In this document: piece after piece, positions 5,559 through 30,654 of the stretch | How positions within the stretch are numbered: position 1 is the first letter of the stretch | Layout: the number at the start of each line of letters is the position of its first letter | Assembly (NCBI GenBank): GCA_964496765.1 | Contig: CAZCAP010000006.1 | Location: 1 to 32,000, forward strand | Source of the DNA: an uncultured archaeon | Lineage (GTDB): Archaea > Iainarchaeota > Iainarchaeia > Iainarchaeales > CSSED10-239 | Reading direction: 5' to 3' | Length of the DNA: 32,000 nt | Notes under the pieces: model-generated | Told to the model about the DNA's origin: nothing | The model's input: the letters and a program-made list of their open reading frames with translations, nothing else | The model's database searches: none | Program-made: the position numbers and the translations under genes

Positions 5559-6377
5559 ATGATTATGGTTAAAAAAATAAAAAAAATAAAAGGAAAAACT
5601 GAAAAAAGAAAAAAAGGAAAACATAAAGGACTTATTGTCTCTCTTGTTATTATTCTTATCCTAATTATTACAATAATGGGAATCTGCTATAACCTAAAAC
5701 AAAATTATTCTAATGAAATCTTTGGATTAGTTATTGGATCTGGTAACCTAATCTCTGAAACAAGGGAAATAAGTTATTTTGATAAAGTAGAACTAAAATA
5801 TATAGGTAACATTTATGTTACTCAAGGAGAAACTAATACTCTTAGAATAGAAGCTGAAGATAATATTTTATCTCTATTATCAACTGAAGTTGTTGATAAT
5901 GAACTTGTTATTAATAAGGAAAGATATACACTTACTTGGATAATTAAAAATAAACCAATTAATATCTATGTAACTATGAAAGATGTTAATGAACTAGTAG
6001 TTCTTGGGTCTGGAAATATTATTAGTAACTCATTAATAGAAACTGATGTATTAAAATTAAAAATAAGTGGTTCAGGAAACATTAATGTAAACACAAATAC
6101 TGATTACCTAGAAACAGGGATAAGCGGTTCAGGAAGAATCACAGTAAATGGAATTGCAAATACTCATAATCTATACATTTCTGGATCAGGTGACGTAGAT
6201 GCATTAGATTTATTTACAAATAATACAAATGTTATGATTTCTGGTTCAGGAGACGCAAAAGTTAATGCAATAGATGAATTAAATATTAAGATATCTGGAT
6301 CAGGTAACTTACAATACACCGGAGATCCAAAAGTTAGCACAAATATTAGTGGATCTGGAACAGTTAAAGGGATTTAA
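5559..6377 (+). CDS. DUF2807/GIN-domain (putative adhesin head) protein, N-terminally anchored
   Basis: Eight GSG(N/D/R/T) repeats at roughly 20-aa spacing (GSGNLI, GSGNII, SGSGNINV, SGSGRITV, SGSGDVDA, SGSGDAKV, SGSGNLQY, SGSGTVKG). An N-terminal TM follows a Lys-rich segment. The ATG at 5559 is 6 nt after AAGGAG; the track start at 5553 is a TTG. Confidence 0.75.
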   Translation: MIMVKKIKKIKGKTEKRKKGKHKGLIVSLVIILILIITIMGICYNLKQNYSNEIFGLVIGSGNLISETREISYFDKVELKYIGNIYVTQGETNTLRIEAEDNILSLLSTEVVDNELVINKERYTLTWIIKNKPINIYVTMKDVNELVVLGSGNIISNSLIETDVLKLKISGSGNINVNTNTDYLETGISGSGRITVNGIANTHNLYISGSGDVDALDLFTNNTNVMISGSGDAKVNAIDELNIKISGSGNLQYTGDPKVSTNISGSGTVKGI

Positions 6378-8091: not shown

Positions 8092-8139
8092 CTATATTAG
8101 ACAAACAAAGAATTGCATGCATTTATTTTTTGATATTTA

Positions 8140-11118: not shown

Positions 11119-11160
11119 AGAAAATGCAAGAATTCTTATATTTGACGTATATATAGAACA

Positions 11161-14739: not shown

Positions 14740-16941
14740 TTACAATTTTTTTCTTTTTAGAAGTAATGAGTTTGTTACAACACTCACACTGCTTAAGGCC
14801 ATTGCTCCTCCTGCAATTATTGGAGAAAGAAGCCAACCTGTTGATAAATAAAGAACTCCTGCAGCAACTGGTATTCCAATTACGTTATAGAAAAGAGCCC
14901 AGAACATATTTTGTTTGATCTTTCTCATTGTTTGTTTTGATAACCTAATTGCTTTTGGAACATCCTGCAAATCACTTTTCATTAGAACAATGTTTCCTGT
15001 TTCCATTGCAACATCTGTTCCTGAACCCATTGCTATTCCAATGTCTGCCTGGGCAAGTGCTGGAGAATCATTTATTCCATCTCCAACCATTCCAACCTTG
15101 TACTTTCCATTCTCCTGGAGCTTCTTAACATAGCTTGCTTTGTCTTCAGGAAGAACTTCAGAAAACACATTATCAATTCCAACCTGCTTTGCAATAGCAT
15201 TTGCAGTTCTCTTGTTATCCCCAGTAATCATGTATGTAATTATTCCTAATTTCTTAAGCTCGCTAACTGCTTTTGGAGATGATTTTTTAATTACATCTGC
15301 AACTCCAATAATTCCAAGAACTTTTTTTTCATCACTTAGCATCATCACTGTCTTTCCTTTGGTTTCAAGCTCCTGCATTTTTTCTAAAAACATTTTGTGT
15401 GGTATATTCTTCTGTGTCATAAGCTTGGTGTTCCCAAAGTAATAGGTTTTACTATTTAATTTTGCAGTTATTCCATAACCTGATATTGCTTTAAAGTTTG
15501 TTGTATTTTTAAAACTTATTTTTTTCTCTTTTCCATAATTAACAATTGCTTCTGCAAGAGGATGCTCTGAATATTTTTCAATGCTTGCTGCAATTTCTAA
15601 AAATTGATTGTTTGTTATTCCTTTACTTGTAAGAATATCAGTAACAACTGGTTTACCTATGGTTATTGTCCCAGTTTTATCAAATATCATGTACTTTAAT
15701 TTATGCGCAGTTTCTAGGGCATCTCCACCCTTGATTAGTATGCCATTTTCTGCACCCTTACCTGTTCCAACCATTATTGCTGTGGGGGTAGCAAGCCCTA
15801 AAGCGCAGGGGCATGCAATAACAAGAACACCAACTGCAATTAGTATAGAGAACGCAAGGGTTTCACCCATCAATATATACCAAATAAGACCAGACACCAA
15901 AGCAATCCCAATCACAATGGGAACAAAATAGGATGAAACATTATCTGCAAACCTTTGAATTGGGGCTTTCTTTCCTTGTGCATCCTCAACAAGCTTAATT
16001 ATGTGTGCAAGAGTTGTATCTTTTCCAACTTTTGTTGCTTTAATTTTTAAACTTCCATGCTTATTAATGGTTGCACCAATAACAAAGTCTCCTTTCTTTT
16101 TTTCTAGAGGTATACTTTCTCCTGTTATCATGCTTTCATCAATGGATGAAATTCCTTCTATAATTATTCCATCAACTGGTATTTTTTCTCCTGGTTTAAC
16201 TAAAAAGACATCTCCAACCCTTAGATCCTCAACAGAAACAATTATCTCTTTATTGTTTTTAATTACAATAGCAGTCTTTGGAGACAAATTAATTAATTTT
16301 TTAATTGCATCACTTGTTCTGCCTTTTGCAATTGCTTCAAGAAGCTTTCCTAGCAACACAAGAGTAATTAATATTATTGATATTTCAAAATATTGCATAC
16401 TCCCTGGATTAAATAAAACATTGTACACACTTAATAGGTAGGCTGATAGGGTTCCAATGGATACAAGAGTATCCATGTTTGCACTTTTATTTTTAAGTGC
16501 ACCCCAGGCACCTCTATAGAATCCCCAACCAGCAATAAATTGAACTGGAGTGGCTAGTAGAAATAAAATATAATCCATGTATGGAACTTCTATGGAGAAC
16601 CATCCTAGAAACATCATAGCTAGAGTTGGGATTGCAAACATTAGAGAAAACATAAATAATTTTTTAAGCTTATTAAAATCTCTCTTTTTTTCTTCTTTTA
16701 GTTTATTTGTATCCTGATCCTGATTAATTAATTTCGCACCATATCCTCTTCCCTCTATTGTTTTTATAATATCTAATGGAACAATTATTTGTTCATCATA
16801 GGTTATGGTTGCTTTTTCTGTAGTTAAATTTACATTTGATGAAAGAACGCCTTCTTTTTTATTTAGTCCGTTTTCTATTATTGTTGCACAGCTCGCACAA
16901 TGCATTCCTTTAATTGATATATTAATCTCTTTTTTGTTCAT
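14740..16941 (-). CDS. copA: Copper-translocating P1B-type ATPase
   Basis: Motifs: N-terminal [15 protein letters not shown], transmembrane CPC ([11 protein letters not shown]), [20 protein letters not shown]. 733 aa. Confidence 0.95.
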
Positions 16942-16999
16942 AAATTCCCTCTTTCATCATATTAGCATATTATTTTGTTTAATTAAAGATCAATTGATT

Positions 17000-17554
17000 T
17001 TATTGCCCACATCCACATCCTCCTGTTGATGGTGGACTTGTTTCTTTCGCATTTAAGATTGCTGCTTCTGTGATTGCATTTGTTACACCCTCAGAACTAA
17101 CTGAGAAGAAACCTCTTCCCATGTTCATTGAGCATGCAATTAGAAAGGTTCCTTCCTTATTAGGTGTAAACTCAATTATGTTATCTGTTGGAGTAACATA
17201 TTTTCTAACACCGAAATCTCCAATAACTACACTTCTCATACACCCATCAACAGTTTCAGTATCCACTGTGATTTTTACAGGAATACCCTTCTTCAATGTA
17301 TTTGGGGTAAGCACATATTCATAGTTTTCAAACCTCAAAATTGCTGTTTGTGTTTCTTGTTTTGCATTTAATTGACTAGTGTTTGATAAAGTTGTAGAAT
17401 TTGATAGAGTATTGGTTGTGTTTGTTGTACTATTGTTTGTGATTGTTTTTGATGGAGTAGTGAATGCATAGGCAGATATAATTCCAAAAACTACAATTAT
17501 TGCAATAACTACTAAACCCAAAACTAGAGTTCTTTTCTTTTCTTTTTTTTCCAT
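17000..17554 (-). CDS. Membrane-anchored cupredoxin-like metal-binding protein
   Basis: N-terminal TM, then an Asn/Thr/Ser-rich linker (NNSTTNTTNTLSNSTTLSNTS). A roughly 90-aa beta domain carries DGCMRSVV and ACSMNMGRGFF, a Cys/Met pattern recalled from cupredoxin_1-type domains next to copper ATPases. C-terminal GGCGCGQ. Confidence 0.5.
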   Translation of the reverse strand: MEKKEKKRTLVLGLVVIAIIVVFGIISAYAFTTPSKTITNNSTTNTTNTLSNSTTLSNTSQLNAKQETQTAILRFENYEYVLTPNTLKKGIPVKITVDTETVDGCMRSVVIGDFGVRKYVTPTDNIIEFTPNKEGTFLIACSMNMGRGFFSVSSEGVTNAITEAAILNAKETSPPSTGGCGCGQ

Positions 17555-17596
17555 AGTTTATTTCTCCTTTTTAATTAATTATTCTTTTTTTATTTA

Positions 17597-18277
17597 TTAT
17601 GTAAAAAATATTGATTTTGGTAGAAACAAAATAATTGCACTTAAAATAAATGTAACAATTATTGTAACAAACATTACTGTTGAAATGTTTATTGGTGTTT
17701 TTTTATATGCTTCATGATTATCTTTAATTGCTTCTTCGTGGAACATGTATGACATCCCAACTAGGATAGCAACATTAATTATCATATAAATAGGCATGAA
17801 AAATTTTATGTGATCAGTAAACATCATAACTGTTATCATGGGGCCCATTGTTCCACCCATAATTCCAGACATCATTCCCTGAAGTGCACCCATTGTTGTT
17901 TTTGAGTGAAGACCTGACCAAAATCCAATTCCTACTCCTATTATGGTCCCCACCATGGCTCCAATAAAGAAACCATTGGTAATCCCAATAACTGCTCCAA
18001 TCATCATTCCTGCCTGCATTCCAAGTGTCATTCCAATCATCATTCCAGTCATACAATTGATTTTTACTTTGTATGCTAAAAAATGCCAGGTGCTACCAGT
18101 GAGAAATGCAATACTGATATTTAAATACAAGAACCAGAGAGCATATCTAATCATTATTCCTGTATTTTTTAAAAACACAAAATGAATCCCAATTTCAATT
18201 ATTGAGGCAACTATAAATGTTAGTAGGATAATCAATACAGCTCTTTTTTCGATTTCAAAATTATTGTTTTCGCTCAA
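17597..18277 (-). CDS. Met/Gly-rich polytopic membrane protein (candidate Cu(I) handling)
   Basis: 226 aa. By my count, 16 Met fall within about 86 residues of GxxxG/MxxxM-type sequence (MTGMMIGMTLGMQAGMMIG...GMMSGIMGGTMGPMITVMMF). TTG start with GGGTGA 8 nt upstream, 2 nt after the copZ stop. Confidence 0.6.
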   Translation of the reverse strand: MSENNNFEIEKRAVLIILLTFIVASIIEIGIHFVFLKNTGIMIRYALWFLYLNISIAFLTGSTWHFLAYKVKINCMTGMMIGMTLGMQAGMMIGAVIGITNGFFIGAMVGTIIGVGIGFWSGLHSKTTMGALQGMMSGIMGGTMGPMITVMMFTDHIKFFMPIYMIINVAILVGMSYMFHEEAIKDNHEAYKKTPINISTVMFVTIIVTFILSAIILFLPKSIFFT

Positions 18278-18279
18278 AT

Positions 18280-18483
18280 TTATTTCACCCTATAACCTTT
18301 GTCTCTTATAATCTCTTTTATTTTAAGTTCATTAATTTTATTTTCATCAAATGATATTTTCACAATTCCATTAGCTGAAGACACATTAACCTCAGAGACT
18401 CCATTCTTTTCAAGAAGTCCTTCTTTAATTAAATACTCACAGCTTTTACAATGCATTCCTTTCACATCAAACTCTACATCCAT
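18280..18483 (-). CDS. copZ: HMA-domain copper chaperone
   Basis: MDVEFDVKGMHCKSCEYLIKEGL contains the GMxCxxC motif. The ATG at 18483 is preceded by AAGGTGAT with a 4-5 nt spacer. 67 aa. Confidence 0.85.
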   Translation of the reverse strand: MDVEFDVKGMHCKSCEYLIKEGLLEKNGVSEVNVSSANGIVKISFDENKINELKIKEIIRDKGYRVK

Positions 18484-18559
18484 TTTAATCACCTTTTTTT
18501 TATAACTAATCAATTAATTCCTAGTAGGCTTAATCAGAAACCGCTTATATAGGTACTTG

Positions 18560-18573
18560 TGAAACTAGTTTCA
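18560..18573. promoter_or_regulatory. Perfect 14-bp palindrome TGAAACTAGTTTCA upstream of the copper operon
   Basis: Perfect dyad. It lies about 80 nt upstream of the copZ start and next to a TATATAA element (minus strand, 18544-18551), between the regulator gene and copZ. Confidence 0.4.
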
Positions 18574-18630
18574 TGAATAGATTAGAATAGGATGTGTAAA
18601 ATTAGGTGAAATAAAGAAAAAAAATAAATA

Positions 18631-19140
18631 TTAATTTTTTAAAACAATAATATTTGTCATTCCTCTTCTTTTTCTTTCAATCAATTCTTTGAATTCAAGC
18701 TTATCAAGAATTCTGCTGATCTTAACCTTTGTAAAACCAGTTTTTGAAAGTAGATCTGATTGATAAATTGAACCCTTATTTGCAATAATTTTTTCAAGAA
18801 CCAGTTTTTCATCAATTGCAAGCTCAGAAAGTATTTTTGTATAATCCATTTTGGGTGTTTTGTTTGATTTTTTTTCTTTTATTCTTTTGATTTCCACTTT
18901 GGTTATTATCTTTTCCTCCCACCCAAAGAAAATCAGATAAATTCCAATCAGAATAACAATGATCATAATTCCTATACTAATGTTTGTTTGAAAATTAATT
19001 GTATCCCACATGGTACAACTAGAACCATGTGTACAGGAGTCAGTGACAATATCAGTCATTGCGTTATTGAATAAATAAATTATTCCTCCAATTAATAGCG
19101 CAATAATTATTATTAAAATTCCTACAACTCTGTTTTTCAT
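18631..19140 (-). CDS. Membrane-tethered winged-helix (MarR/TrmB-like) transcription regulator
   Basis: Two TM segments flank a loop DSCTHGSSCTMWD. The C-terminal LVLEKIIANKGSIYQSDLLSKTGFTKVKISRILDKLEFKELIERKRRGMTNIIVL is a typical wHTH. Confidence 0.65.
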   Translation of the reverse strand: MKNRVVGILIIIIALLIGGIIYLFNNAMTDIVTDSCTHGSSCTMWDTINFQTNISIGIMIIVILIGIYLIFFGWEEKIITKVEIKRIKEKKSNKTPKMDYTKILSELAIDEKLVLEKIIANKGSIYQSDLLSKTGFTKVKISRILDKLEFKELIERKRRGMTNIIVLKN

Positions 19141-22256: not shown

Positions 22257-22856
22257 TTATATCTTGACCTTCTTTTTCAAATAAATCCAACCAATTACTA
22301 GAACAATTACAAAGATTAATATAAGTAATATTAGGTTATAAGATTTCACTATTGTTTCAGATACCTGCTCACCAATAAAATATCCAAGACTTGTTAAAAA
22401 TAAACACCAGATACCTGCTCCTAGACCAGTATATAAAATAAATTTCTTTAGATCCATTTTTGCAAACCCAGCAGGAAGAGAAATGTATTGTCTAACCAGA
22501 GGAATTAGTCTACCAATAAATGTGGTTTTCCCTCCATGTTTTATAAAATAATCATCAATCTTCAGAAGAGATTCTTTCTTTATAAAAAACATTTTGGAAT
22601 GAGATAGTAAATATTCTCTTCCAAAGTATCTTGCAATAGTATAATTGATTCCTGCTCCTAGAAGAGAACCAGCTATTGCAATTATTATAATTATCCAAAA
22701 ATTAAATTGCCCTGTTGATGCTAGGTACCCAGCAGGAATTAATATAACCTCCGAAGGAAAAGGAATAAATGAACTTTCCAGGGTCATTAATAGGAAAACA
22801 CCAAAGTAGCCTAAAGTAAACATCAAAGTGTTTAATGATAATAAAATAAAATCCAT
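22257..22856 (-). CDS. DedA-family membrane protein
   Basis: Motifs: FIPFPSEVILIPAGYLA, GRLIPLVRQYISLPAG and a multi-TM layout typical of DedA/SNARE-associated proteins. Confidence 0.85.
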   Translation of the reverse strand: MDFILLSLNTLMFTLGYFGVFLLMTLESSFIPFPSEVILIPAGYLASTGQFNFWIIIIIAIAGSLLGAGINYTIARYFGREYLLSHSKMFFIKKESLLKIDDYFIKHGGKTTFIGRLIPLVRQYISLPAGFAKMDLKKFILYTGLGAGIWCLFLTSLGYFIGEQVSETIVKSYNLILLILIFVIVLVIGWIYLKKKVKI

Positions 22857-22889: not shown

Positions 22890-23567
22890 TTAAATTAACA
22901 TAGATAAGAAAAAGATTAAAAGGCTTACGGGAAGGAGAATTAATAAATAAATGATTGCTTTTTTCCTATTATCCTCTAAAATGGATAAATATATTGAAGA
23001 AATTATAATATATTCAACAATATAGATGATTACACAATAATAGGTAATGGAATATAAAGAAATACCAACTGTTTCACTAATCTCAGGAACAGATGTTTTT
23101 AAGCTCTTAATTAGAGAGATTACAATTCCAAGTATACCAGGAACAATCAAACTACTAGAGAAGAGAATGGTGTACTTCTGCATAAGAAGATTTGAGTTTC
23201 GTTCATCAAGAACCTGCTTGGTTTTAATAAAATTATCAGCAACAGACTTATAGTCAGAAAAGGAAATGGTTCCACTTGTTGTAGATAAATAGATTAAATC
23301 TAGGAATCTATTTAGTATCTCTGAATTATATTTCCTTTTTAAAATATCAAACAACTCTTTAGGTTTGTGGCCTTTATTTATTTTTAATAGAATATCTGTA
23401 AAGTTTCTAGAAATTATTTTATTTCTTGATTTAGAGAGTTTTTCAAGAATTATTTTTAAATCATTACTCTTGGGAATGGAAGAAAGCTTAAGTATTTCAT
23501 CAACCAATGCATTTTCTAATTTTCTTCTCTCAAGAGAAAAATAATATTTTTCAAATAAATTAAACAT
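22890..23567 (-). CDS. T2SS-F/TadC/FlaJ-like platform protein (half-size)
   Basis: 225 aa. A soluble helical N-terminal domain is followed by C-terminal TM segments. It sits directly downstream of a second T2SSF-like gene and the ATPase. The assignment rests on architecture and context. Confidence 0.5.
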   Translation of the reverse strand: MFNLFEKYYFSLERRKLENALVDEILKLSSIPKSNDLKIILEKLSKSRNKIISRNFTDILLKINKGHKPKELFDILKRKYNSEILNRFLDLIYLSTTSGTISFSDYKSVADNFIKTKQVLDERNSNLLMQKYTILFSSSLIVPGILGIVISLIKSLKTSVPEISETVGISLYSITYYCVIIYIVEYIIISSIYLSILEDNRKKAIIYLLILLPVSLLIFFLSMLI

Positions 23568-23585: not shown

Positions 23586-24329
23586 CTATAGAGGATTATT
23601 GGATCTTATTACTAATAGCAGCAACATATCAATTAACGGGAAAAGTACGATTGTAATAAACACAATTGTAATTGGAGAAAAACTAAGTTCGAGAAAATTA
23701 CTTCCCACCAATAAAAACATTAGAAACATGGATGGAATGATTGCTGAAAAAACAATAAACAATAATGTTAATAAATTTAATTTAGTTGAGAATCTCCTAA
23801 CCATTTGGGTTTGATTTTCAAAAATGGTGTCAGATAATGTTTTTAGAGAATACTCCTTATTCCTGACTCCTGAATCCATAATATCTTCAATTTGATAAAA
23901 AACTCTTTCAAGTTCAGGATAACTTGAGGACACTGAAAACAAGGCATCCTGTAAATTAAAACCATGATTTCTAACCAAATACAAAGCTTCTCCAATCAAT
24001 CTCCCAATCTCACTATTATCACACCTTGATTCAAGCGCAATCTTGAGCGGAATATTCTTTGAAAGATCAGTTGCTAAATTATTTAAAAAGAAGGGAAGTT
24101 CCTGTTGTATTTTTTTTCTTCTGGTTTCTAAAACTATTTTTTTATTAAAAAAAGTTATTGAAAAGAAAATTATAAATGAAAGAATAAATATATAAATTAA
24201 ATTATTAAATGATAATTCAAATAAACTATAATCCACAAGCTTGTATATAAGAAACAACGAAAGAAAGAGAACACAATAGAGAATTAAGTTCTTTCTTGAA
24301 AAAATCTCTTCAATAATCTTTGGCATCAT
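23586..24329 (-). CDS. T2SS-F/TadB/FlaJ-like platform protein (half-size)
   Basis: N-terminal TMs, then ELPFFLNNLATDLSKNIPLKIALE...GEALYLVRNHGFNLQDALFSV..., then C-terminal TMs. This is the layout of the GspF/PilC/TadB domain. The start overlaps the ATPase stop (ATGA). Confidence 0.6.
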   Translation of the reverse strand: MMPKIIEEIFSRKNLILYCVLFLSLFLIYKLVDYSLFELSFNNLIYIFILSFIIFFSITFFNKKIVLETRRKKIQQELPFFLNNLATDLSKNIPLKIALESRCDNSEIGRLIGEALYLVRNHGFNLQDALFSVSSSYPELERVFYQIEDIMDSGVRNKEYSLKTLSDTIFENQTQMVRRFSTKLNLLTLLFIVFSAIIPSMFLMFLLVGSNFLELSFSPITIVFITIVLFPLIDMLLLLVIRSNNPL

Positions 24330-26206
24330 TTACGTTTATCTCCCTTAGCACTCATGGTTTGAATGAAAAATGAAAGAACATCCTCTGGGGAGGGGGTGGT
24401 GGTTTTGGAAGCACACTTGTCCAAGAAATATAGCAAGCTTTTATTTTGTTTTTTAAATAGTTTATTTAATTCCAGTTGATTTTTAACTCCAAAAGCAATT
24501 CTAAATTTATCAAACAATTTTTTGGAAGTTCCAACCTTTACAAGCTTATCTTTATTTATATCAAATTCAAATAATCTATTTAATACAGGCTTATTATTTT
24601 CAAAGATAACTTCACAAATCTCAGTTACATTTCTTAGATCTGATACCTTACCTTTATTATATTTATTATATCTTCTTTGAACAATAATTAAATCAATAAC
24701 TCCTAAATCATTCTCAATAACACCATAGGAAACTAATCTTAAAAGTGCTTCCTTTGCACTTTGAGAATGGAAAGTGGTATAGGTTCCCTTTGCTTGCCCA
24801 CAGAGCATAGAATCAATTATCGCTTTTGATTCATCCCTTGATCTCACTTCTCCAATAACAACCCTATCGGGTCTCATCCTAAGTGTATTAATAACTAGAG
24901 AATCAAGAGTAACTCCCAAATCAGGATTAACAAGAGTAAATATCTTGTGCTCATGGGGTATGTTTATTTCTCTAACCTCTTCAACCACAACAAACCTTTC
25001 ATCAGGTGGAATAAAAGAAAGAAGAGCATTAAGAGTTGTGGTCTTCCCAGAACCTGTATTCCCAACAACAAACACATTTGAATCAGTTAAAAAAGCCAGA
25101 GATAAAAATGAAAGCGCATCAATGGACAACGTGTTTCTTTTAATTAAATCAATAATAGTAAATGGCTTTTCTGAGAATTTTCTAATTGTAACACACACAC
25201 TTTCAGTAATTGGTGAAATTATTGCATTCATTCTAGACGCACCAATGGTTGCATCCAAAAGTGGATTCTTCAAAGTTATATACTTATTGGTTTCCCAGGA
25301 TAATTTATTAATTAAATCTTTAATTATTTTAGAAGACGTATATACTAAGTTTGTTTCAAGCCACCCAAAGATTCTATGATACACAAAGACTGGTTTGTTT
25401 TCTCCAATTATTGAGATTTCTTCTAGACTATCATCCACAAGTAGGTTTGATAGAGGCCCATAGTCATAGAGATTACCATAGGCAATCAAAAGAATATAAT
25501 TGAATTGATCAGATTCCAGTTCTATCTTTTCTCTAAGGCAATAATTAACTAGTGTTTCTTCAAGTTCGTTTTTTACAATTCCTGGTAGTTTATCAGGAGT
25601 ATTTATTCTAACCTGTTTTTCATTATCATCTTTAATATCAAACCTATCCCTGTATTCATCTATAACAAAATTAATTATTTCAATCTCATCAATTGAGAGA
25701 ATGGATTCCTCAATAAAATAATATTTTTTATTTGAATCATCTATATATACGTTTTTAGAAAGGTTTTTTTTATTAAACTCAAATATTCTATAGCCTAGAT
25801 ATTTATTAATTATTTCTAACTCATCACTTTCACTAGTGTCATTAACCAGTTCTAAAATATCTGGATTGTTTTTTAAACAATATCTATTAAATGATTGTTG
25901 AGAACATAGATCACACTTATATGCTTTATTCTTTTTAACTACAATTGCATTGTGTGGGCAAACAGCAATACATTCTAAACATCCAGTACATCTTTCTGGA
26001 TCAATAGATACAACCCCCTTTGCAGAGAAGTAGATTGCATTTGTTTTGCAGGCACCTAAACAGGGAGCATCTTCACAATTCTTACAATTAAATACAATTA
26101 GAGCATCTCTTACTTTAAATTCATAGGGGCAATTAAGAAATAGGTTTTTATTTTTTCTCGTAGATAGTACTTTAGCTTTGTCTTCATCTTTAAATTTAAT
26201 ATACAT
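24326..26206 (-). CDS. FlaI/PilB/VirB11-class secretion ATPase with an N-terminal 4Fe-4S (DmsB/HycB-type) ferredoxin module
   Basis: Motifs: Walker A GNTGSGKTT, Asp box VVVEEVREI, Walker B PDRVVIGEVR, His box TTFHS. The N-terminal 110 aa carry CKNCEDAPCLGAC, CTGCLECIAVCP and CDLC...C. Confidence 0.85.
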   Translation of the reverse strand: MYIKFKDEDKAKVLSTRKNKNLFLNCPYEFKVRDALIVFNCKNCEDAPCLGACKTNAIYFSAKGVVSIDPERCTGCLECIAVCPHNAIVVKKNKAYKCDLCSQQSFNRYCLKNNPDILELVNDTSESDELEIINKYLGYRIFEFNKKNLSKNVYIDDSNKKYYFIEESILSIDEIEIINFVIDEYRDRFDIKDDNEKQVRINTPDKLPGIVKNELEETLVNYCLREKIELESDQFNYILLIAYGNLYDYGPLSNLLVDDSLEEISIIGENKPVFVYHRIFGWLETNLVYTSSKIIKDLINKLSWETNKYITLKNPLLDATIGASRMNAIISPITESVCVTIRKFSEKPFTIIDLIKRNTLSIDALSFLSLAFLTDSNVFVVGNTGSGKTTTLNALLSFIPPDERFVVVEEVREINIPHEHKIFTLVNPDLGVTLDSLVINTLRMRPDRVVIGEVRSRDESKAIIDSMLCGQAKGTYTTFHSQSAKEALLRLVSYGVIENDLGVIDLIIVQRRYNKYNKGKVSDLRNVTEICEVIFENNKPVLNRLFEFDINKDKLVKVGTSKKLFDKFRIAFGVKNQLELNKLFKKQNKSLLYFLDKCASKTTTPSPEDVLSFFIQTMSAKGDKRK

Positions 26207-26356: not shown

Positions 26357-27094
26357 TTAATACAGTTCAGAAAAATTAGTTAACATGGTTGTGTTAAGTC
26401 TACCCTCAATTCCATTCATCGAATCAGATATACTTATATTAATATCATTAATCTGAGAATTAACATTATCAAATTGAGTAGTTACGTTATTGAATTCATT
26501 CATGATATTATTATCAATATAATTTTGCACATCATACACTCTTGCATCAACTGAGCTTATTCTTTCAGTTAGATTATTATCCAAATCATCTAATCTCTGC
26601 ACAAGTGCAACGTACTGTTCTCTCTGGGATCTTGAAACTTCAACAATTAAATTAAGTCCTGTTGAAACGTGGAATGAAGATGAAATTTGCAATACCCTTG
26701 GGGTTCCATTTCTAATTACTGTACACTTTACTGCTTCTTCATACACTCCTTCATATTCAGGAGTAATGAATGAAACATAATAGTTCCCAGGAACTGTGGT
26801 TGGACCCATTTCCCTATCCACAAAGAAGAAAGATTTATCAGGGTATAGTAAGGATACAATACAATTTGCATCAGTTATTGATATTCCTTTGGCATCCTGT
26901 AGCCTAACAATAATCTGACCCTGTTCATTACTTATGTATTCAGTTCCAGATACCATCATAAGATCTGATGCTACTCCCCTTCCTTTAAAGTAAAATATAA
27001 GAAAGATGCCTATTGCAAGAAGAACAACTATACCTATTACTAGGTATATTCTTTTTCTATTTCTACTTTCATGCATATGCTGTCTAAACATCAT
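26357..27094 (-). CDS. N-anchored surface protein, paralog A (beta-sandwich-like domain plus short Asn-rich helical repeat tail)
   Basis: TM IYLVIGIVVLLAIGIFLIFYF. The domain TEY..IVRLQD..G...C.V.LLYPDKSFF.VD...PGNYY...G.YEE.VKC...SSFH is homologous to 28647-29144. The tail LDNNLTERISSVDARVYDVQNYIDNN... resembles the 55-aa repeats. Confidence 0.7.
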   Translation of the reverse strand: MMFRQHMHESRNRKRIYLVIGIVVLLAIGIFLIFYFKGRGVASDLMMVSGTEYISNEQGQIIVRLQDAKGISITDANCIVSLLYPDKSFFFVDREMGPTTVPGNYYVSFITPEYEGVYEEAVKCTVIRNGTPRVLQISSSFHVSTGLNLIVEVSRSQREQYVALVQRLDDLDNNLTERISSVDARVYDVQNYIDNNIMNEFNNVTTQFDNVNSQINDINISISDSMNGIEGRLNTTMLTNFSELY

Positions 27095-27139
27095 ATTATT
27101 ATTTCAACTCAGAGATTATGACTATATTATATAGTTAAT

Positions 27140-27190
27140 ATATAAAAACAAAAAGTATAAAAAACCAGGGGATTTCAATTTATCCCCCTG
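27140..27190 (-). terminator. Hairpin plus oligo-T terminator after the repeat-protein gene
   Basis: On the minus strand, CAGGGG(G)AU..loop..AUCCCCUG (27166-27190) is the only GC-rich element in the spacer. It is followed immediately by GUUUUUUAUACUUUUUGUUUUUAU and begins 22 nt after the stop at 27213. Confidence 0.55.
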
Positions 27191-27212
27191 ATCTTCCATA
27201 AACCAAATTCAT

Positions 27213-28580
27213 TTATGATATTATTCTTACATCAATCTGGCTCTCTTGATTATCTAAAATATTGTGAGCTGTAGAATTAATGTCTGTTGTTTGTGCCTTA
27301 ATAATACCAATGTCTGTTAATAATGTATCAATTCTTGATGACACACTTCCTGAAAGGTATTCCCAGGTTGTTGTTGTTGTATTATCTATTTCATCAAGTC
27401 TTGCTACCTGTTCATCATGCATTACAACAGCAGCTGCTTTGATACTATATATTTCTTGACATAGAGCACTTGAGTCGGTCTCTGGGTTTGAACAAAACTG
27501 TTCAAGTAAAGTAATATTTCCATCAATGTTTTCAAATCTTTGGTCAATTGCTGCTCTATCTGTATCATTCATAGCATGTGTTGTTAACCATGTGGTATCA
27601 TCCTTAACACTCTGTACCTGAGTTGATAATTGATCAAGCATAGCGTTTAATTGAAGGTTAAGATCTCCAGCAACAAGTCCTATAATCATATCTGATAAAG
27701 AAGCATTAACATCTGCTAAATCAGATTTAATTTCCTGTCCTGTTATAACAACCTGTCCATTAACACTAACTTCTAAACTATCAAGTCTTGCACTTAGGAA
27801 ATTATTTGAATCTAAGAATTTCTGTGCAATTAAAGCATTTGTGTTATTAAATTGGTTTGTTATTTGGCTTGATAAACTTACGTTCAATGAATCTAAAATT
27901 CCTGTTAGGTTTGTATTAACATTTGCTAAATTTGTGTTTATCTCGTCACCAGTATCTTGAACCTTAGCATTCAAACTTACATTCACATTTTCAAGTTGAG
28001 CAGAAAGCTCAGCAAACTTGGTTGTCATTTGTGTTGCAAGGTTTGTGTTTACTGTGTTCAATAGATTTGTTAAAGATGTATCAACATTTGTTAAGTGAGC
28101 ATTTATTGAATCACCTGTTGCTTCCATCTTACCATCTAAACTTAAGTTAATGTCCTGTAAATTATTTCCAAGAGTCTCAAATTCAGAACCCATTTGGTTT
28201 GAAAGGTTTGTATTTACTGTGTTTAGGATACTTGTCATTGATGCATTTACATCACTTAGGTTTGTGGTTATTATTTGTCCAGTTTCAGCAACCTTAGCCA
28301 TGATTGTTAAGTTAACATCATTTAGTTGTGCTGTTGATGCATTAAATTCGCTTAACATCTGACCAGATAAGCTAGTATTAACAGAATTTAATAAACTTGT
28401 TAATGATGTATTAGATGTGCTTATACTTGTTTGTAATTCCTGTCCTGTGGTTACAACAGTTCCAGTAATACTTACATTAACAGCATCTAGTTGAGTTCCA
28501 AGTGTATTAATTCCTTCATTTAATTGGTTTGTTACACCTGCATTAACATCTGTTATTAAATCATTTAAGTTTGTATTCAT
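27213..28580 (-). CDS. Asn/Thr/Ser-rich tandem-repeat fibrous protein (probably the C-terminal part of one gene with 28647-29144)
   Basis: 455-aa ORF with no signal or TM segment. Exact 55-aa repeats and about 18 N-x-S/T sequons by my count. It is in frame with the upstream ORF across a single TAA. Confidence 0.7.
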   Translation of the reverse strand: MNTNLNDLITDVNAGVTNQLNEGINTLGTQLDAVNVSITGTVVTTGQELQTSISTSNTSLTSLLNSVNTSLSGQMLSEFNASTAQLNDVNLTIMAKVAETGQIITTNLSDVNASMTSILNTVNTNLSNQMGSEFETLGNNLQDINLSLDGKMEATGDSINAHLTNVDTSLTNLLNTVNTNLATQMTTKFAELSAQLENVNVSLNAKVQDTGDEINTNLANVNTNLTGILDSLNVSLSSQITNQFNNTNALIAQKFLDSNNFLSARLDSLEVSVNGQVVITGQEIKSDLADVNASLSDMIIGLVAGDLNLQLNAMLDQLSTQVQSVKDDTTWLTTHAMNDTDRAAIDQRFENIDGNITLLEQFCSNPETDSSALCQEIYSIKAAAVVMHDEQVARLDEIDNTTTTTWEYLSGSVSSRIDTLLTDIGIIKAQTTDINSTAHNILDNQESQIDVRIIS

Positions 28581-28646
28581 ATTTGAGATATTAGTTGTTA
28601 ATATTTCGTTTGTGTCTGCAATCTGTGCACTTAAAGAAACATTTAC
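27612..28646 (-). repeat. Six tandem 165-nt (55-codon) coding repeats
   Basis: Units start VNVSLSAQIA, VNVSITGTVV, VNLTIMAKVA, INLSLDGKME, VNVSLNAKVQ and LEVSVNGQVV. The first five starts are exactly 55 residues apart; unit 5 carries a 15-residue insertion, so the sixth start follows 70 residues later. At nucleotide level, AAGGTTTGT(G/A)TTTACTGTGTT recurs at 28038 and 28203, a 165-nt offset. Unit 1 starts immediately after the TAA at 28647-28649 and spans the annotated ATG. Confidence 0.85.
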
Positions 28647-29144
28647 TTATCCAAGGTTTGCATCAAGTGCATCTACCTTTTCAGTAACTATTCTTACCTG
28701 CTCAAGAGCTGGGTTTAAGTGGAATGATTGAGATGTTTTAATTGTTTGTGTTCCCTTAAGACAGGTTACTTCCTGTTCATAGGTTCCAAGCGGAGCACCA
28801 GCAAGTGAATCTGTTCTATACCAGTTTCCTGGGATATTTGATAAAGCTAGTGGCTGATCATCAACAAATGTACTCTTATCCGGTTTTAGGATAGTTACGT
28901 TACATGAGTCAACTGCATAGGGGTCTCCTCTAAAATCAGCAAGTCTTACTATTGTTGAGGCAACGTCATCTCTCCAATATTCAGTGTGGGATACCCAACT
29001 GACTACTGGTTCATTAACTGTTTGCTTACCATCAGTGTATGCAAATGCAAAGAATGCAATTACAACTATCACAATGGTTGAAACAATACCCCATCTAATA
29101 AGCTTTTTTTTCTTATTTGTATATTTTGGATTTAAATCTTCCAT
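28647..29144 (-). CDS. N-anchored surface protein, paralog B N-terminal part (TM plus beta-sandwich-like domain), ending at an in-frame TAA
   Basis: AAGGTGA lies 5 nt upstream of the ATG. TM IVSTIVIVVIAFFAFAY. The domain TEYWRDDVASTIVRLADFRGDPYAVDSCNVTILKPDKSTFVDD...PGNWY...GTYEQEVTCLK...SQSFH is homologous to paralog A. Confidence 0.75.
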   Translation of the reverse strand: MEDLNPKYTNKKKKLIRWGIVSTIVIVVIAFFAFAYTDGKQTVNEPVVSWVSHTEYWRDDVASTIVRLADFRGDPYAVDSCNVTILKPDKSTFVDDQPLALSNIPGNWYRTDSLAGAPLGTYEQEVTCLKGTQTIKTSQSFHLNPALEQVRIVTEKVDALDANLG

Positions 29145-30042: not shown

Positions 30043-30654
30043 TTATTTTCCTTTCTTTTCCTTTAAATACAAATTATAAATTATTCCTACAGAGACTAAA
30101 CAAAATACTTCTACAATTACAAAAGTTAATGAAAAACCAATTATTGATGCAAGAACTGCACCCACTAGCCCAGCAATTCCTATTCCGAAACTAACAAATG
30201 TTGAATAAACAGACCACTGAAAGCCCTCTCTTCTCTTATCAAGATTTCTTGTCCAAATACTTGTCCAAACAGGATATTCAATTCCTGAACCTATTCCAAA
30301 AATAAATTCAGCTAGATATATCCAATAAATATTATTTGCAAAAATATAAATTAATGGAGCAATTGAAATTATCATGGTTCCAATAAGTAACCATTTCATT
30401 TTTTTCTTTTGCTTATCAACAAACCTAGAAAAAGGAAGTTGAATAATACACTTAGTTATAAGAAATATTGCACTTGCAATTCCTGCTGAAAGAATGCTTC
30501 CCCCAACAAGATTATCCTTTAGAAAAATAGCAAAGATTGGGGCAACCAACCCAAACCCAGTACCAACAATCAGATCAATAAAAAGTAAATGCCATAAAGT
30601 TTTATTAAGTATTCTATTAAACTTTAGGTCATTAAGTAATTTCATATAATCCAA
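30043..30654 (-). CDS. Half-size (6-TM) MFS-like membrane protein
   Basis: About 200 aa with six hydrophobic segments and a loop SRFVDKQKKKMKW resembling MFS motif A. The start is either TTG at 30654 or ATG at 30645. Confidence 0.55.
   Translation of the reverse strand: MDYMKLLNDLKFNRILNKTLWHLLFIDLIVGTGFGLVAPIFAIFLKDNLVGGSILSAGIASAIFLITKCIIQLPFSRFVDKQKKKMKWLLIGTMIISIAPLIYIFANNIYWIYLAEFIFGIGSGIEYPVWTSIWTRNLDKRREGFQWSVYSTFVSFGIGIAGLVGAVLASIIGFSLTFVIVEVFCLVSVGIIYNLYLKEKKGK

What the first reader, a model, noticed from the sequence alone, without database searches (positions are those of the whole stretch)
24326..26206. Fe-S ferredoxin module fused to a type-IV-filament/archaellum-class secretion ATPase
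Seen in sequence: residues about 360-560 carry the ordered Walker A (GNTGSGKTT), Asp box (VVVEEVREI), Walker B (PDRVVIGEVR) and His box (TTFHS) of the FlaI/PilB/GspE/VirB11 superfamily. The first 110 residues (nt about 25877-26131) carry 12 Cys. They are arranged as C26; C41-x2-C44-x4-C49-x3-C53; C73-x2-C76-x2-C79-x3-C83-P; and C98-x2-C101-x8-C110. Established knowledge: CxxCxxCxxxCP is the canonical [4Fe-4S] ferredoxin motif, and the string C-x-x-C-E-D-A-P-C followed by a KCDLC-type motif is characteristic of DmsB/HycB/NrfC-type polyferredoxin subunits. Inference: the motor ATPase of this secretion/assembly module carries 2-3 Fe-S clusters, which would couple filament assembly or secretion to redox state or electron transfer. 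I know of no characterised secretion ATPase with this fusion.
Basis: partly seen in the sequence, partly recalled or inferred. Interest (0 to 1): 0.8.

Follow-up and report, generated by a model that had tools for sequence, protein, structure and literature searches.

The report
Iron-sulfur module on archaeal pilus motor
A tiny symbiotic-type (DPANN) archaeon encodes a pilus-assembly motor ATPase with a built-in three-cluster iron-sulfur "wire" domain at its front end; this fusion is rare, conserved across three DPANN lineages, and apparently undescribed, and it probably ties pilus building to the cell's redox state.

Summary
ORF 24326-26206 (-) encodes 626 aa. Residues 1-~118 are a DmsB/NrfC/FdnH-type poly-[4Fe-4S] ferredoxin module. 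It is fused without a linker to a complete FlaI/GspE-class ATPase, which is translationally coupled to two half-size platform genes.

It is not a chimera: the identical gene lies on 9 contigs from at least 4 samples. It is not a zinc ribbon: the Pfam Fer4 families score above cut-off, and the fold matches only four-cluster Fe-S subunits.

The fusion recurs in about 35 protein clusters (50% identity) out of 1.84 billion representatives, from Iainarchaeota, Micrarchaeota and Undinarchaeota. The common form has 16 Cys (4 clusters). The window protein has 12, and the four it lacks are the ligands of one terminal cluster. Other lineages independently lost other complete ligand sets. The cluster bound by C26/C98/C101/C110 is never lost. 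This is strong comparative evidence for real cluster binding.

Orthologous loci carry fused, split (L090) or unfused ATPases, so the module is an accessory. The best reading (about 0.4) is a redox/O2/Fe-S-status gate on a type-IV-pilus-like motor. Electron-relay and purely structural roles remain open. It is not an archaellum. No published description was found. I rate it a new variant of a known kind, interest about 0.65.

The parts
24326..26206 (-). Whole gene: 626-aa Fe-S / secretion-ATPase fusion
   Evidence: ORF and translation. Pfam T2SSE plus Fer4 families. Identical on 9 independent contigs. AF2 pLDDT 91.4.
25853..26206 (-). N-terminal poly-[4Fe-4S] ferredoxin module (residues 1-118), double-ferredoxin (DmsB/NrfC/FdnH/HycB) type, three predicted clusters
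   Evidence: Fer4_11 33.9 bits, above the 26.2 cut-off. phmmer against PDB. AF2 of residues 1-135, pLDDT 89, 93-97 over the Cys core. Foldseek hits are only four-cluster Fe-S subunits.
26117..26134 (-). Remnant of motif I (N-C26-P-Y-E-F). Only the fourth Cys (the 'CP') is kept. Predicted fourth ligand of the invariant cluster B.
   Evidence: Alignment of 86 modules. C26 is invariant.
26048..26086 (-). Motif II, C41-x2-C44-x4-C49-x3-C53. C41/44/49 are assigned to cluster C and C53 to cluster D.
   Evidence: Aligned to NarH 184-196 and FdnH 99-onward.
25955..25990 (-). Motif III, C73-x2-C76-x2-C79-x3-C83-P. C73/76/79 are assigned to cluster D and C83 to cluster C.
   Evidence: Pfam Fer4 67-88..
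25877..25915 (-). Motif IV, K-C98-D-L-C101-x8-C110, without its fourth Cys (N114 in its place). C98/101/110 plus C26 form cluster B.
   Evidence: C98, C101 and C110 are invariant in 63 and 27 sequences. 16-Cys relatives carry the extra C-x3-CP.
25784..25804 (-). Junction motif K-Y-L-G-Y-R-I ('LGW' motif, G138 invariant): first element of the ATPase proper
   Evidence: G138 is invariant. Unfused orthologues start just before this motif. The L090 split occurs right after it.
25214..25834 (-). ATPase N-terminal domain (residues ~125-331)
   Evidence: About 500 aligned columns with afGspE 2OAP and FlaI 4IHQ/4II7. NCBIfam FlaI model matched over residues 150-562.
24512..25213 (-). ATPase C-terminal RecA-like domain (residues 332-565), carrying Walker A (25037-25063), Asp box (24965-24991), Walker B (24842-24871) and His box (24764-24778)
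   Evidence: Pfam T2SSE 332-511, E 1e-31. Motif coordinates. Invariant K388, E409, E413, D447, E453, H480 and others; these are the residues listed with 1 added to each number.
24329..24511 (-). C-terminal helical tail (residues 566-626)
   Evidence: AF2 helices at about 577-600 and 607-623 (numbers +1). Poorly conserved.
23586..24329 (-). Platform half 1 (247 aa, polytopic membrane protein, FlaJ/TadC-like). Its start overlaps the ATPase stop by 4 nt.
   Evidence: NCBIfam ArlJ/FlaJ E 4.8e-7. Weak Pfam T2SSF. Orthologous to T2SSF-positive genes in L005-L008, blastp 1e-19 to 1e-85.
22890..23567 (-). Platform half 2 (225 aa, T2SSF-like)
   Evidence: Weak Pfam T2SSF, E 0.003. Orthologous to T2SSF-positive second genes in L005-L008, 1e-24 to 1e-76.
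26357..29144 (-). Three co-oriented upstream genes (165, 455 and 245 aa): membrane-anchored or Asn-rich coiled-coil repeat proteins, possibly surface or filament-associated. Membership is uncertain.
   Evidence: No Pfam family above cut-off. No class-III (pilin) signal peptide. Other fusion loci carry giant unannotated proteins at this position.

Best explanation
This is the motor ATPase of a minimal type-IV-pilus-like (not archaellum) assembly system of a DPANN archaeon. A complete FlaI/GspE-class ATPase (residues ~125-626) is translationally coupled to two half-size FlaJ/TadC-like platform genes. A double-ferredoxin module (residues 1-118) has been grafted onto its N-terminus with essentially no linker.

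By homology the module binds three [4Fe-4S] clusters. Cluster B uses C98, C101, C110 and C26. Cluster C uses C41, C44, C49 and C83. Cluster D uses C73, C76, C79 and C53. A hexamer would therefore carry 18 clusters.

Shown here: the domain identities, the conservation of the fusion, the whole-cluster pattern of Cys gain and loss, the invariance of cluster B, and the accessory status of the module.

Inferred: cluster B is formed by the very first and very last Cys elements of the module, so it staples the module shut right where the chain enters the ATPase N-domain. I take it to be the functional centre. Its presence or redox state, fed by clusters C and D acting as an antenna to the ferredoxin pool (these fermenters make reduced ferredoxin with POR and lack a respiratory chain), would set the conformation of the ATPase N-domain and hence its activity. 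ATP-costly pilus assembly would then run only when the cell is anoxic, reduced and Fe-S replete. This is the same logic as other sensory domains placed at the N-terminus of PilB/MshE/GspE-type ATPases.

Sub-confidences: it binds Fe-S clusters, about 0.9. It is a T4P-like assembly ATPase rather than an archaellum motor, about 0.85. The module is regulatory or sensory, about 0.4.
For: Domain identity. AF2 confidence: 91.4 full length and 89.3 for the module.

The fusion is real and conserved. The identical gene is on 9 contigs. 86 of the 120 best homologues are fused. About 35 clusters at 50% identity span the Fe-S-to-NTD profile in 1.84e9 representatives. Source names: Iainarchaeum/Diapherotrites, Micrarchaeota/Norongarragalinales, Undinarchaeales.

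The Cys behave as ligand sets. The classes found are 16 Cys (ABCD), the window class (BCD), the P0115 class (ABC), P0154 (ABD), P0016/19 (BD) and P0209 (AB). Each loss removes exactly three Cys of one motif plus the fourth Cys of its partner motif. The losses lie on separate branches. The only invariant Cys are C26, C98, C101 and C110, which form cluster B.

Operon: the 4-nt ATPase/F1 overlap, and F1 and F2 are orthologous across the family. A prepilin peptidase lies in L006. No FlaH/F/G or archaellin genes were seen.

Accessory status: orthologous syntenic loci (DUF192/Prenyltransf ... ATPase-F1-F2-PAC2) carry fused, split (L090) or cleanly unfused ATPases that begin at the LGW motif.

Physiology, from papers: Diapherotrites mostly encode POR and ferredoxin (PMC8407392). 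The related lineages have T4P (FlaIJK) but no archaellum and no electron-transport chain (PMC8561730).

The helix at residues ~126-134 is confident only in the full-length model (pLDDT 84-89, against 53-59 in isolation). This suggests the module is docked on the ATPase rather than flexibly tethered.
Against: There is no experimental evidence of cluster binding or of redox control. DmsB-type multi-cluster modules are classically electron wires; sensors usually use a single labile cluster. The module is dispensable in orthologous loci, so whatever it does is not needed for the motor itself, and it could be nearly neutral in some lineages. No conserved redox partner gene is present that would define the input. 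The NJ tree behind 'independent losses' and 'interspersed unfused forms' is crude.
Confidence: 0.4

Rival explanations
1. Structural or mechanical Fe-S domain (ABCE1/Rli1-like logic). The clusters only rigidify an N-terminal module that docks a partner (platform protein, membrane, or neighbouring subunit) or stabilises the hexamer. Redox state is not read out. Dependence on Fe-S assembly is a side effect.
For: The invariant cluster B staples the two ends of the module together next to the ATPase. Lineages tolerate a broken chain (classes BD and ABD), which a wire would not. The module appears docked in the full-length model. From established knowledge, ATPases and helicases with purely structural [4Fe-4S] domains are known, for example ABCE1 and XPD.
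Against: Maintaining three or four complete ligand sets across three phyla is costly for a purely structural role. Unfused orthologues work with the same platform genes without any replacement domain.
Confidence: 0.25
2. Genuine electron conduit. The 3-4 cluster chain relays electrons between a cytoplasmic donor (ferredoxin or POR) and a partner at the motor (platform, pilin, another enzyme, or neighbouring modules around the hexamer). In this reading the motor doubles as a redox device.
For: The module belongs to the family whose known job is electron transfer: DmsB, PsrB, FdnH, HycB, NarH. Its closest structural relatives include the polyferredoxins AorA and HycB3/4, which polymerise into conducting nanowires (PMC10413684). 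The two most populated reduced classes lost a terminal cluster (A or D), which leaves a contiguous three-cluster chain.
Against: No acceptor is present: the ATPase, the platform halves and the neighbours carry no redox cofactor motif. Classes BD and ABD interrupt the chain. The module is absent from orthologous loci. No Mo/W-pterin or hydrogenase subunit is nearby.
Confidence: 0.15
3. It is the archaellum motor ATPase (FlaI/ArlI), and the organism is motile.
For: The best NCBIfam model is FlaI (187 bits). FlaI structures are among the top fold matches. JGI labels some homologues 'FlaI'.
Against: The score is far below the equivalog cut-off of 550. afGspE, a non-archaellum ATPase, matches equally well. 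No FlaH, FlaF, FlaG, FlaC/D/E/X or archaellin genes are present in the window or in five related loci. The platform is split into two half-size genes rather than one FlaJ. Related DPANN are described as having T4P but no archaellum (PMC8561730).
Confidence: 0.03
4. Artefact or non-Fe-S: a misassembled join of two genes, or a Zn-binding Cys cluster (zinc ribbon or GspE-type tetracysteine site).
For: Bacterial GspE/PilB ATPases do carry a tetracysteine Zn site (established knowledge). Metagenome assemblies can be chimeric. L090 shows the two parts as separate ORFs.
Against: The gene is identical on 9 contigs from at least 4 samples. The fusion is conserved down to 35% identity in three phyla. 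Fer4 families score above cut-off and no Zn family is hit. All fold and sequence matches are holo poly-[4Fe-4S] proteins. The whole-cluster loss pattern makes sense only for the cross-ligated ferredoxin topology. The Zn site of GspE is in the C-terminal domain, not at the N-terminus.
Confidence: 0.02

Closest known systems
Archaeal secretion/assembly ATPases FlaI (ArlI; PDB 4IHQ/4II7) and Archaeoglobus GspE (PDB 2OAP)
   Same: Residues ~125-626 have the same two-domain fold (Foldseek E 5e-35 to 1e-33, about 500 aligned columns). The Walker A, Asp, Walker B and His boxes are all present. A FlaJ-like platform is encoded downstream.
   Different: An extra 118-residue poly-[4Fe-4S] module sits at the N-terminus, which none of the solved proteins has. 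The protein scores 187 bits against a FlaI cut-off of 550. The platform is split in two. There are no archaellum accessory genes.
Tad/Flp pilus ATPase TadA/CpaF (PDB 8RJF, 9E24) with the split platform TadB + TadC
   Same: Same superfamily and a similar size of the core. Two separate one-domain T2SSF platform genes follow the ATPase. JGI labels homologues 'CpaF family'.
   Different: It is archaeal. The TadA model scores 130 bits against a cut-off of 373. No secretin, TadZ or Flp genes are present. The Fe-S module is absent from all described Tad systems.
Four-cluster ferredoxin subunits of Mo/W-pterin oxidoreductases and hydrogenase complexes (DmsB, NrfC/PsrB 2VPW_B, FdnH 1KQF_B, NarH 1Q16_B, HycB 7Z0S_B, HycB3/4 7QV7, AorA 8C0Z_C/9MQX) - Pfam Fer4_11
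   Same: Sequence and fold match. The motif order I-IV and the KCDLC motif IV are the same. The family's common form has all 16 Cys.
   Different: It is not a separate subunit of a redox enzyme but the N-terminal domain of a motor ATPase. No catalytic or membrane-anchor partner is encoded nearby. The window protein has lost the cluster that, in the oxidoreductases, faces the catalytic subunit.
ABCE1/Rli1 (ribosome-recycling ABC ATPase with an N-terminal 2x[4Fe-4S] ferredoxin-like domain). This comparison rests on established knowledge and was not tested here.
   Same: It is a P-loop motor ATPase carrying an N-terminal ferredoxin-type Fe-S domain that is not part of a redox enzyme, and the clusters make the motor dependent on Fe-S supply and sensitive to oxidants.
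   Different: The ATPase class is unrelated (ABC versus hexameric T2SSE/RecA-like). It has two clusters rather than 3-4. This is an analogy of design, not homology.
N-terminal sensory/regulatory domains of bacterial T4P/T2SS ATPases (MshE-N/PilB c-di-GMP-binding domain, GspE N1 domain), from established knowledge, and the Fe-S redox sensor LdpA
   Same: The position is the same: a regulatory input module fused upstream of the ATPase N-domain. LdpA shows that ferredoxin-type 2x[4Fe-4S] domains can serve as redox sensors; there is a weak Pfam LdpA_Fe-S-bd hit of 24 bits.
   Different: The ligand is different (Fe-S rather than a nucleotide second messenger or a protein partner). The LdpA hit is below its cut-off of 27.6. 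No sensory role has been demonstrated.

Membership tests
T2SS/T4P/T4SS secretion ATPase superfamily (Pfam PF00437 T2SSE) | Profile score above the gathering cut-off | tested here: met
   110.1 bits against a cut-off of 24.9, residues 332-511.
T2SS/T4P/T4SS secretion ATPase superfamily (Pfam PF00437 T2SSE) | Ordered Walker A, Asp box, Walker B and His box | tested here: met
   Positions 382-390, 406-414, 446-455 and 477-481. The key residues are invariant in 74 sequences.
T2SS/T4P/T4SS secretion ATPase superfamily (Pfam PF00437 T2SSE) | Two-domain NTD+CTD fold of the FlaI/GspE type | tested here: met
   Foldseek matches to 2OAP, 4IHQ, 4II7 and 8RJF, E 1e-28 to 5e-35, TM (target-normalised) 0.71-0.75.
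T2SS/T4P/T4SS secretion ATPase superfamily (Pfam PF00437 T2SSE) | Hexamer with ATP hydrolysis | not testable with these tools
   Needs biochemistry or a multimer model.
Archaellum motor ATPase FlaI/ArlI (NCBIfam NF058587 equivalog) | Score at or above the equivalog cut-off | tested here: not met
   187 bits against a cut-off of 550.
Archaellum motor ATPase FlaI/ArlI (NCBIfam NF058587 equivalog) | Neighbouring archaellum genes (FlaH/ArlH, FlaF, FlaG, archaellins, single two-domain FlaJ) | tested here: not met
   None are present in the window or in loci L001-L008. The platform is two half-size genes.
TadA/CpaF (TIGR03819) | Score at or above the cut-off | tested here: not met
   130.1 bits against a cut-off of 373.
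TadA/CpaF (TIGR03819) | Split platform of the TadB + TadC type | tested here: met
   Two T2SSF-type half genes lie downstream in the window and in L005-L008, L090 and L092-L094.
Four-cluster ferredoxin (Pfam PF13247 Fer4_11; DmsB/NrfC/FdnH/HycB type) | Profile score above the gathering cut-off | tested here: met
   33.9 bits against a cut-off of 26.2. Fer4, Fer4_6 and Fer4_7 are also above their cut-offs.
Four-cluster ferredoxin (Pfam PF13247 Fer4_11; DmsB/NrfC/FdnH/HycB type) | Four Cys motifs (16 Cys) for four clusters | tested here: not met
   The window protein has 12 Cys, lacking I-1,2,3 and IV-4, so three clusters are predicted. 29 or more homologues and most 50%-identity representatives have all 16.
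Four-cluster ferredoxin (Pfam PF13247 Fer4_11; DmsB/NrfC/FdnH/HycB type) | Double-ferredoxin fold | tested here: met
   AF2 pLDDT 89. The 24 best Foldseek hits are all four-cluster Fe-S subunits, with rmsd 2.1-2.5 Å over 81-91 columns to 2IVF_B and 6X6U_B.
Four-cluster ferredoxin (Pfam PF13247 Fer4_11; DmsB/NrfC/FdnH/HycB type) | Acts as the electron-transfer subunit of an oxidoreductase complex (catalytic partner encoded nearby) | tested here: not met
   No Mo/W-pterin, hydrogenase or membrane-anchor gene lies in the window or in related loci.
Four-cluster ferredoxin (Pfam PF13247 Fer4_11; DmsB/NrfC/FdnH/HycB type) | Actual [4Fe-4S] binding | not testable with these tools
   Supported indirectly by the whole-ligand-set gain and loss pattern. 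Needs UV-vis, EPR and Fe/S analysis.
Zinc ribbon / GspE-type tetracysteine Zn site | Zn-ribbon profile or fold; a four-Cys site in the ATPase C-domain | tested here: not met
   No Zn-ribbon family was hit. No Zn protein appears among the fold or sequence matches. The Cys lie N-terminal to the ATPase.

The most novel reading that the evidence does not exclude
The pilus motor is itself a redox machine. Six modules would place 18-24 [4Fe-4S] clusters around the membrane-proximal rim of the hexamer and form an electron path, possibly inter-subunit as in the AorA and HycB3/4 nanowires. That path would link the symbiont's reduced-ferredoxin pool to the platform or filament, and through the pilus contact to a host cell. 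Alternatively, ATP hydrolysis would gate electron transfer. Either would be a first example of electron transfer built into a type IV filament motor.
Probability: 0.07. Interest if true: 0.9.

Novelty: new variant of a known kind. Interest (0 to 1): 0.65.

Why it matters
Type IV filament motors are among the most widespread prokaryotic machines. In DPANN archaea, pili are thought to be central to attachment to host cells. All known regulatory inputs to these ATPases are protein partners or nucleotide second messengers; a built-in poly-[4Fe-4S] module would be a new type of input, or a new activity.

The family also provides a natural experiment. Fused, split and unfused forms occur in orthologous loci, and variants with 4, 3 and 2 clusters exist. 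That makes the question directly testable by expressing a few variants.

If the module gates assembly by redox state or oxygen, it would explain how energy-poor, ferredoxin-based fermenters restrict an expensive surface structure to favourable conditions. If it conducts electrons, it would connect pilus biology to interspecies electron exchange.

The concerted loss of complete ligand sets is also a clean sequence-only criterion for calling real Fe-S sites in uncultured organisms.

Tried and rejected
(1) Zinc ribbon: rejected.

(2) Chimeric assembly or frameshift join in the window: rejected on 9 identical contigs and family-wide conservation.

(3) Archaellum: rejected on the equivalog cut-off and gene context.

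(4) GTDB species-genome scan. The N-terminal alignment A3 was too divergent to seed. None had a Cys-rich extension on the matched ORF. This is uninformative about distribution and is not evidence of absence.

(5) Geometry of the Cys ligands. Model coordinates are not exposed in /data, so S-S distances could not be measured. The assignment rests on homology and on the loss pattern.

(7) Pilin genes. A regex scan for class-III signal peptides found none adjacent; the only candidate is 18 kb away at 5553-6377. The three upstream genes have no such signal.

(8) Stand-alone modules P0143 and P0156 as possible split forms. L089 is a 659-nt contig in which the ORF is followed by unrelated HTH-like sequence, and L091 is a fused gene with an in-frame stop. 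Neither is informative. Only L090 looks like a real split.

(9) A decayed module upstream of the unfused orthologues: none was found.

(10) Literature. Nine full-text searches and four papers read gave no description of the fusion. A citable open-access statement of the exact Cys-to-cluster map of DmsB or NarH was not found. That map is given from established knowledge and my recollection of NarH ligands, and is only partly supported by PMC10413684 and PMC8301774.

(11) Numbering slip. Alignment A1 and the full-length model were made from window:24326-26203:-, which omits Met1. Residue numbers are therefore one lower than the true numbers; this was corrected.

Full report
**What is there.** The minus-strand ORF 24326-26206 encodes a 626-aa protein. 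Its stop overlaps by 4 nt the start of a 247-aa membrane protein (23586-24329). A 225-aa membrane protein follows (22890-23567). Pfam places T2SSE at residues 332-511 (110 bits). It also places four ferredoxin families above their curated cut-offs at residues 40-104: Fer4_11 33.9/26.2, Fer4 32.1/21.1, Fer4_6 30/25 and Fer4_7 30.6/27. NCBIfam ranks the archaellum ATPase FlaI first (187 bits, residues 150-562), but far below its cut-off of 550. It is followed by TadA, VirB11 and TrbB. For residues 31-125 NCBIfam lists YgfT, AegA, DsrO, NrfC, DmsB, TtrB, FdnH and HydN. True positions are Walker A 382-390, Asp box 406-414, Walker B 446-455 and His box 477-481. Cys are at 26, 41, 44, 49, 53, 73, 76, 79, 83, 98, 101 and 110. 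Twelve Cys in 85 residues against a window background of 0.98% gives P = 5e-11.

**Organism and setting.** The window is about 29% G+C. It carries a complete archaeal 23S rRNA at 8137-11121 with no adjacent 16S, and two tRNAs. Named homologues of the fusion protein come from Candidatus Iainarchaeum/Diapherotrites (55-58% identity), Micrarchaeota/Norongarragalinales and Undinarchaeales. The source is therefore a DPANN archaeon, most likely an Iainarchaeote.

**Not an artefact.** The identical protein is encoded in the same gene order on 9 contigs from at least four samples and two assembly pipelines. Of the 120 best database homologues, 86 have the Cys-rich N-terminus in front of the ATPase, at 84% down to about 35% identity.

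**Structure.** AlphaFold2 with a 74-sequence alignment gives mean pLDDT 91.4 and pTM 0.78. That model lacks Met1, so its numbers are true numbers minus 1. Foldseek against the PDB aligns about 500 columns to Archaeoglobus GspE (2OAP, E 5e-35) and FlaI (4IHQ/4II7, E 1e-33), then to CpaF (8RJF). Residues ~125-626 are therefore a complete archaeal secretion ATPase, and the ferredoxin part is an addition rather than a replacement. Residues 1-135 modelled alone give pLDDT 89.3, with 93-97 over the Cys core. The 24 best PDB matches are all four-cluster Fe-S subunits: the AOR small subunit 9MQX, EbdB 2IVF_B, WOR5-B 6X6U_B, HycB3/4 7QV7, PsrB 2VPW_B, FdnH 1KQF_B, HycB 7Z0S_B, PcrB and NarH. A sequence-only search of the PDB gives the same set. 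No zinc protein appears.

**The Cys pattern behaves as cluster ligand sets.** Aligning the 86 modules shows four motifs, I to IV, as in DmsB/FdnH-type proteins. In this double-ferredoxin fold the outer motifs (I, IV) form one two-cluster domain and the inner motifs (II, III) form the other. Each cluster is held by the first three Cys of one motif and the fourth Cys of its partner. This is established knowledge of the 2x[4Fe-4S] ferredoxin fold. 'Two fused ferredoxin domains' is stated for AorA and HycB3/4 in PMC10413684, and 'two domains each holding two clusters' for NarH in PMC8301774. The NarH ligand list I use is from memory. It is consistent with the alignment of query 40-102 to NarH 183-248.

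I name the clusters along the known chain:
- A = I(1-3) + IV(4)
- B = IV(1-3) + I(4)
- C = II(1-3) + III(4)
- D = III(1-3) + II(4)

The classes observed are:
- 16 Cys = ABCD: 29 or more of the close set, and most of the 50%-identity representatives.
- The window's class, 45 sequences, lacks exactly I(1-3) and IV(4), giving BCD.
- P0107/115/117/120 lack exactly II(4) and III(1-3), giving ABC.
- P0154 lacks exactly II(1-3) and III(4), giving ABD.
- P0016/P0019 lack both the A and C sets, giving BD.
- P0209 lacks motifs II and III altogether, giving AB.

On a crude NJ tree of the ATPase core these classes sit on different branches, and BD is nested inside the BCD clade. At least four independent events have each removed one complete ligand set and nothing else. 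This is hard to explain unless the Cys really ligate clusters in that topology.

The only invariant Cys are C26, C98, C101 and C110, which form cluster B. For the window protein the predicted clusters are B (C98, C101, C110, C26), C (C41, C44, C49, C83) and D (C73, C76, C79, C53). The IV(4) position is N114, with the following Pro retained.

**Size and spread of the family.** A profile of the Fe-S module plus the first 120 residues of the ATPase was scored against all 1.84 billion 50%-identity representatives. 31 hits reach E <= 1e-30. About 35 proteins match across the whole profile from their own N-terminus. Below them the list is ordinary polyferredoxins matching only profile positions ~30-130. 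The family is therefore rare and, as far as names exist, confined to DPANN.

**Gene context.** In four divergent fusion loci (53% to 35% identity, including 16-Cys and 8-Cys forms) the ATPase is always followed by two half-size T2SSF-type genes. These are orthologous to the window's two genes (blastp 1e-19 to 1e-85). Upstream there are often very large unannotated proteins (3311, 3140, 871 and 824 aa). L006 has a prepilin peptidase four genes upstream. No FlaH/F/G, FlaC/D/E/X or archaellin genes are seen. Papers on these lineages report type IV pili (FlaIJK) but no archaellum, pyruvate fermentation via POR, and no electron-transport chain (PMC8561730). POR and ferredoxin are present in most Diapherotrites (PMC8407392).

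**The module is an accessory.** The closest unfused ATPases (about 40-45% identity) lie in the same syntenic locus: Prenyltransf/DUF192 upstream, then ATPase, F1, F2 and PAC2. They start a few residues before the conserved 'LGW' motif (window K135-YLGYRI-141), with no remnant of a module upstream. In L090 a 125-aa 16-Cys module is a separate ORF ending just after LGW. It overlaps by 19 nt a new ATG of a 425-aa ATPase whose sequence continues where fused relatives continue, and the same platform genes follow. This locus is seen on two contigs. So fused, split and unfused states exist for one orthologous system, with one sharp domain boundary.

**How it most likely works.**
*Shown:* this is a T4P-like motor ATPase with a bona fide ferredoxin-fold module carrying three complete ligand sets, and one cluster (B) is universally retained.
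*Inferred:* cluster B ties the first and last elements of the module together immediately before the chain enters the ATPase N-domain. The connecting helix (~126-134) is confident only in the full-length model (pLDDT 84-89 against 53-59), which suggests a docked module. N-terminal extensions are where PilB/MshE/GspE-type ATPases receive regulatory input (established knowledge). The module can be lost without replacing the motor, and some lineages break the chain (BD, ABD) while keeping B. I therefore favour a regulatory reading: the integrity or redox state of cluster B, with C and D acting as an antenna to the ferredoxin pool, gates ATPase activity. Pilus assembly would then proceed only in reduced, anoxic, Fe-S-replete cells (confidence about 0.4).

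The rivals are as follows:
- A purely structural, ABCE1-like domain (about 0.25).
- A true electron conduit (about 0.15). This is favoured by the family's normal job, by terminal-cluster losses that leave a contiguous chain in the two largest reduced classes, and by the nanowire-forming relatives AorA and HycB3/4. It is disfavoured by the lack of any acceptor and by the interrupted chains.
- An archaellum motor (about 0.03).
- An artefact or a Zn site (about 0.02).

**Comparison with known systems.** It works like, and is a member of, the T2SSE superfamily; all tested features are met. It is not a member of the FlaI or TadA equivalog families, because both cut-offs are unmet, although its split platform resembles TadB/TadC. 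Its N-module is a member of Fer4_11 by score and fold. It departs from that family in having three rather than four clusters and in not being a subunit of an oxidoreductase. The nearest design analogue is ABCE1, which is not a homologue.

**Novelty.** Nine full-text searches, the archaeal T4P census (PMC4858521) and DPANN genomics papers contain no description. Databases carry only generic or dual automatic labels. I cannot exclude a mention in literature outside the searchable library. I rate it a new variant of a known kind: a known motor with a new, conserved cofactor module. Interest is 0.65. It would surprise specialists and is directly testable with the natural 4-, 3- and 2-cluster, split and unfused variants, but its function is still inferred.

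**Limits.** There is no experimental metal analysis. The tree is a simple NJ. The GTDB scan was truncated. Two structure libraries were unavailable.

Noticed in passing
L090:4001-5637 (NCBI GCA_053996675.1, JBMXYJ010000028.1): A natural 'split' version of the fusion. A 125-aa 16-Cys Fe-S module ORF ends just after the LGW motif and overlaps by 19 nt the ATG of a 425-aa unfused ATPase in another frame. The same two platform genes follow. Seen on two contigs; it could be a fixed 1-nt indel or an assembly error.
   Followed up: partly
L092, L093, L094 (around 5001 in each): The closest unfused ATPases occupy the same syntenic locus as the fused ones (DUF192/Prenyltransf ... ATPase-F1-F2-PAC2). 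They begin exactly at the LGW motif with no decayed module upstream. In L092 the called start seems too far downstream: 'ILGW' is in frame upstream of it.
   Followed up: partly
P0016/P0019 (L008:6001-7839) and P0154: These variants keep clusters B and D but lack C (classes BD and ABD). That would interrupt the electron chain, which is an argument against an obligatory end-to-end wire.
   Followed up: partly
window 8137-11121 (-): A complete archaeal 23S rRNA gene (2437 bits) with no 16S or 5S next to it, so the rRNA genes are unlinked. G+C is 44% here against about 29% elsewhere.
   Followed up: no
window 26357-27094, 27213-28580, 28647-29144 (all -): Three co-oriented genes lie just upstream of the ATPase. 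Two have an N-terminal membrane anchor plus a shared ~80-aa two-Cys domain (…IVRL.D..G…C.V..L.PDKS.F.D…PGN.Y…G.YE..V.C). All three have Asn-rich coiled-coil repeats; the 455-aa one is made almost entirely of ~35-aa repeats. No Pfam family scores above cut-off and there is no pilin-type signal. They may be surface or filament-associated proteins.
   Followed up: partly
window 5553-6377 (+): The only ORF in the window with a class-III-like (pilin-type) N-terminus (…KGKHKG|LIVSLVIILILIITIMG…), 274 aa, 18 kb from the ATPase.
   Followed up: no
window 14740-19140 (-): A copper/heavy-metal cluster: a CopA-type P1B ATPase (733 aa, HMA + E1-E2), a cupredoxin-like protein (184 aa), an unannotated 226-aa protein, a 67-aa HMA chaperone (seen in the L001 gene calls) and a MarR/DUF7343 regulator (169 aa).
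   Followed up: no
window 22257-22856 (-) and L005:9420-9950: A DedA/VTT-domain membrane protein directly follows the second platform gene, both in the window and in a 53%-identical relative's locus. It may be part of the module or just local synteny.
   Followed up: no
window 30043-30654 (-): A 203-aa ORF matches only the first half of the MFS_1 profile (positions 2-170 of 347). It is a half-size or truncated transporter, and it is the same length in the independent contigs L001 and L002.
   Followed up: no
L091:205-710 and L089:84-659: L091 carries a fused gene with an in-frame stop after 'ILGRRVL'; the ATPase-like sequence continues in the same frame. In L089 the module ORF is followed by HTH/transposase-like sequence. 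These may be pseudogenes, sequencing errors or an insertion.
   Followed up: partly
Fold matches of window residues 1-135: Among the nearest structural relatives are AorA (8C0Z_C, 9MQX) and HycB3/HycB4 (7QV7). These polyferredoxins polymerise into electron-conducting nanowires through C-terminal helices (PMC10413684). In the fusion, the equivalent C-terminal helix leads into the ATPase.
   Followed up: no
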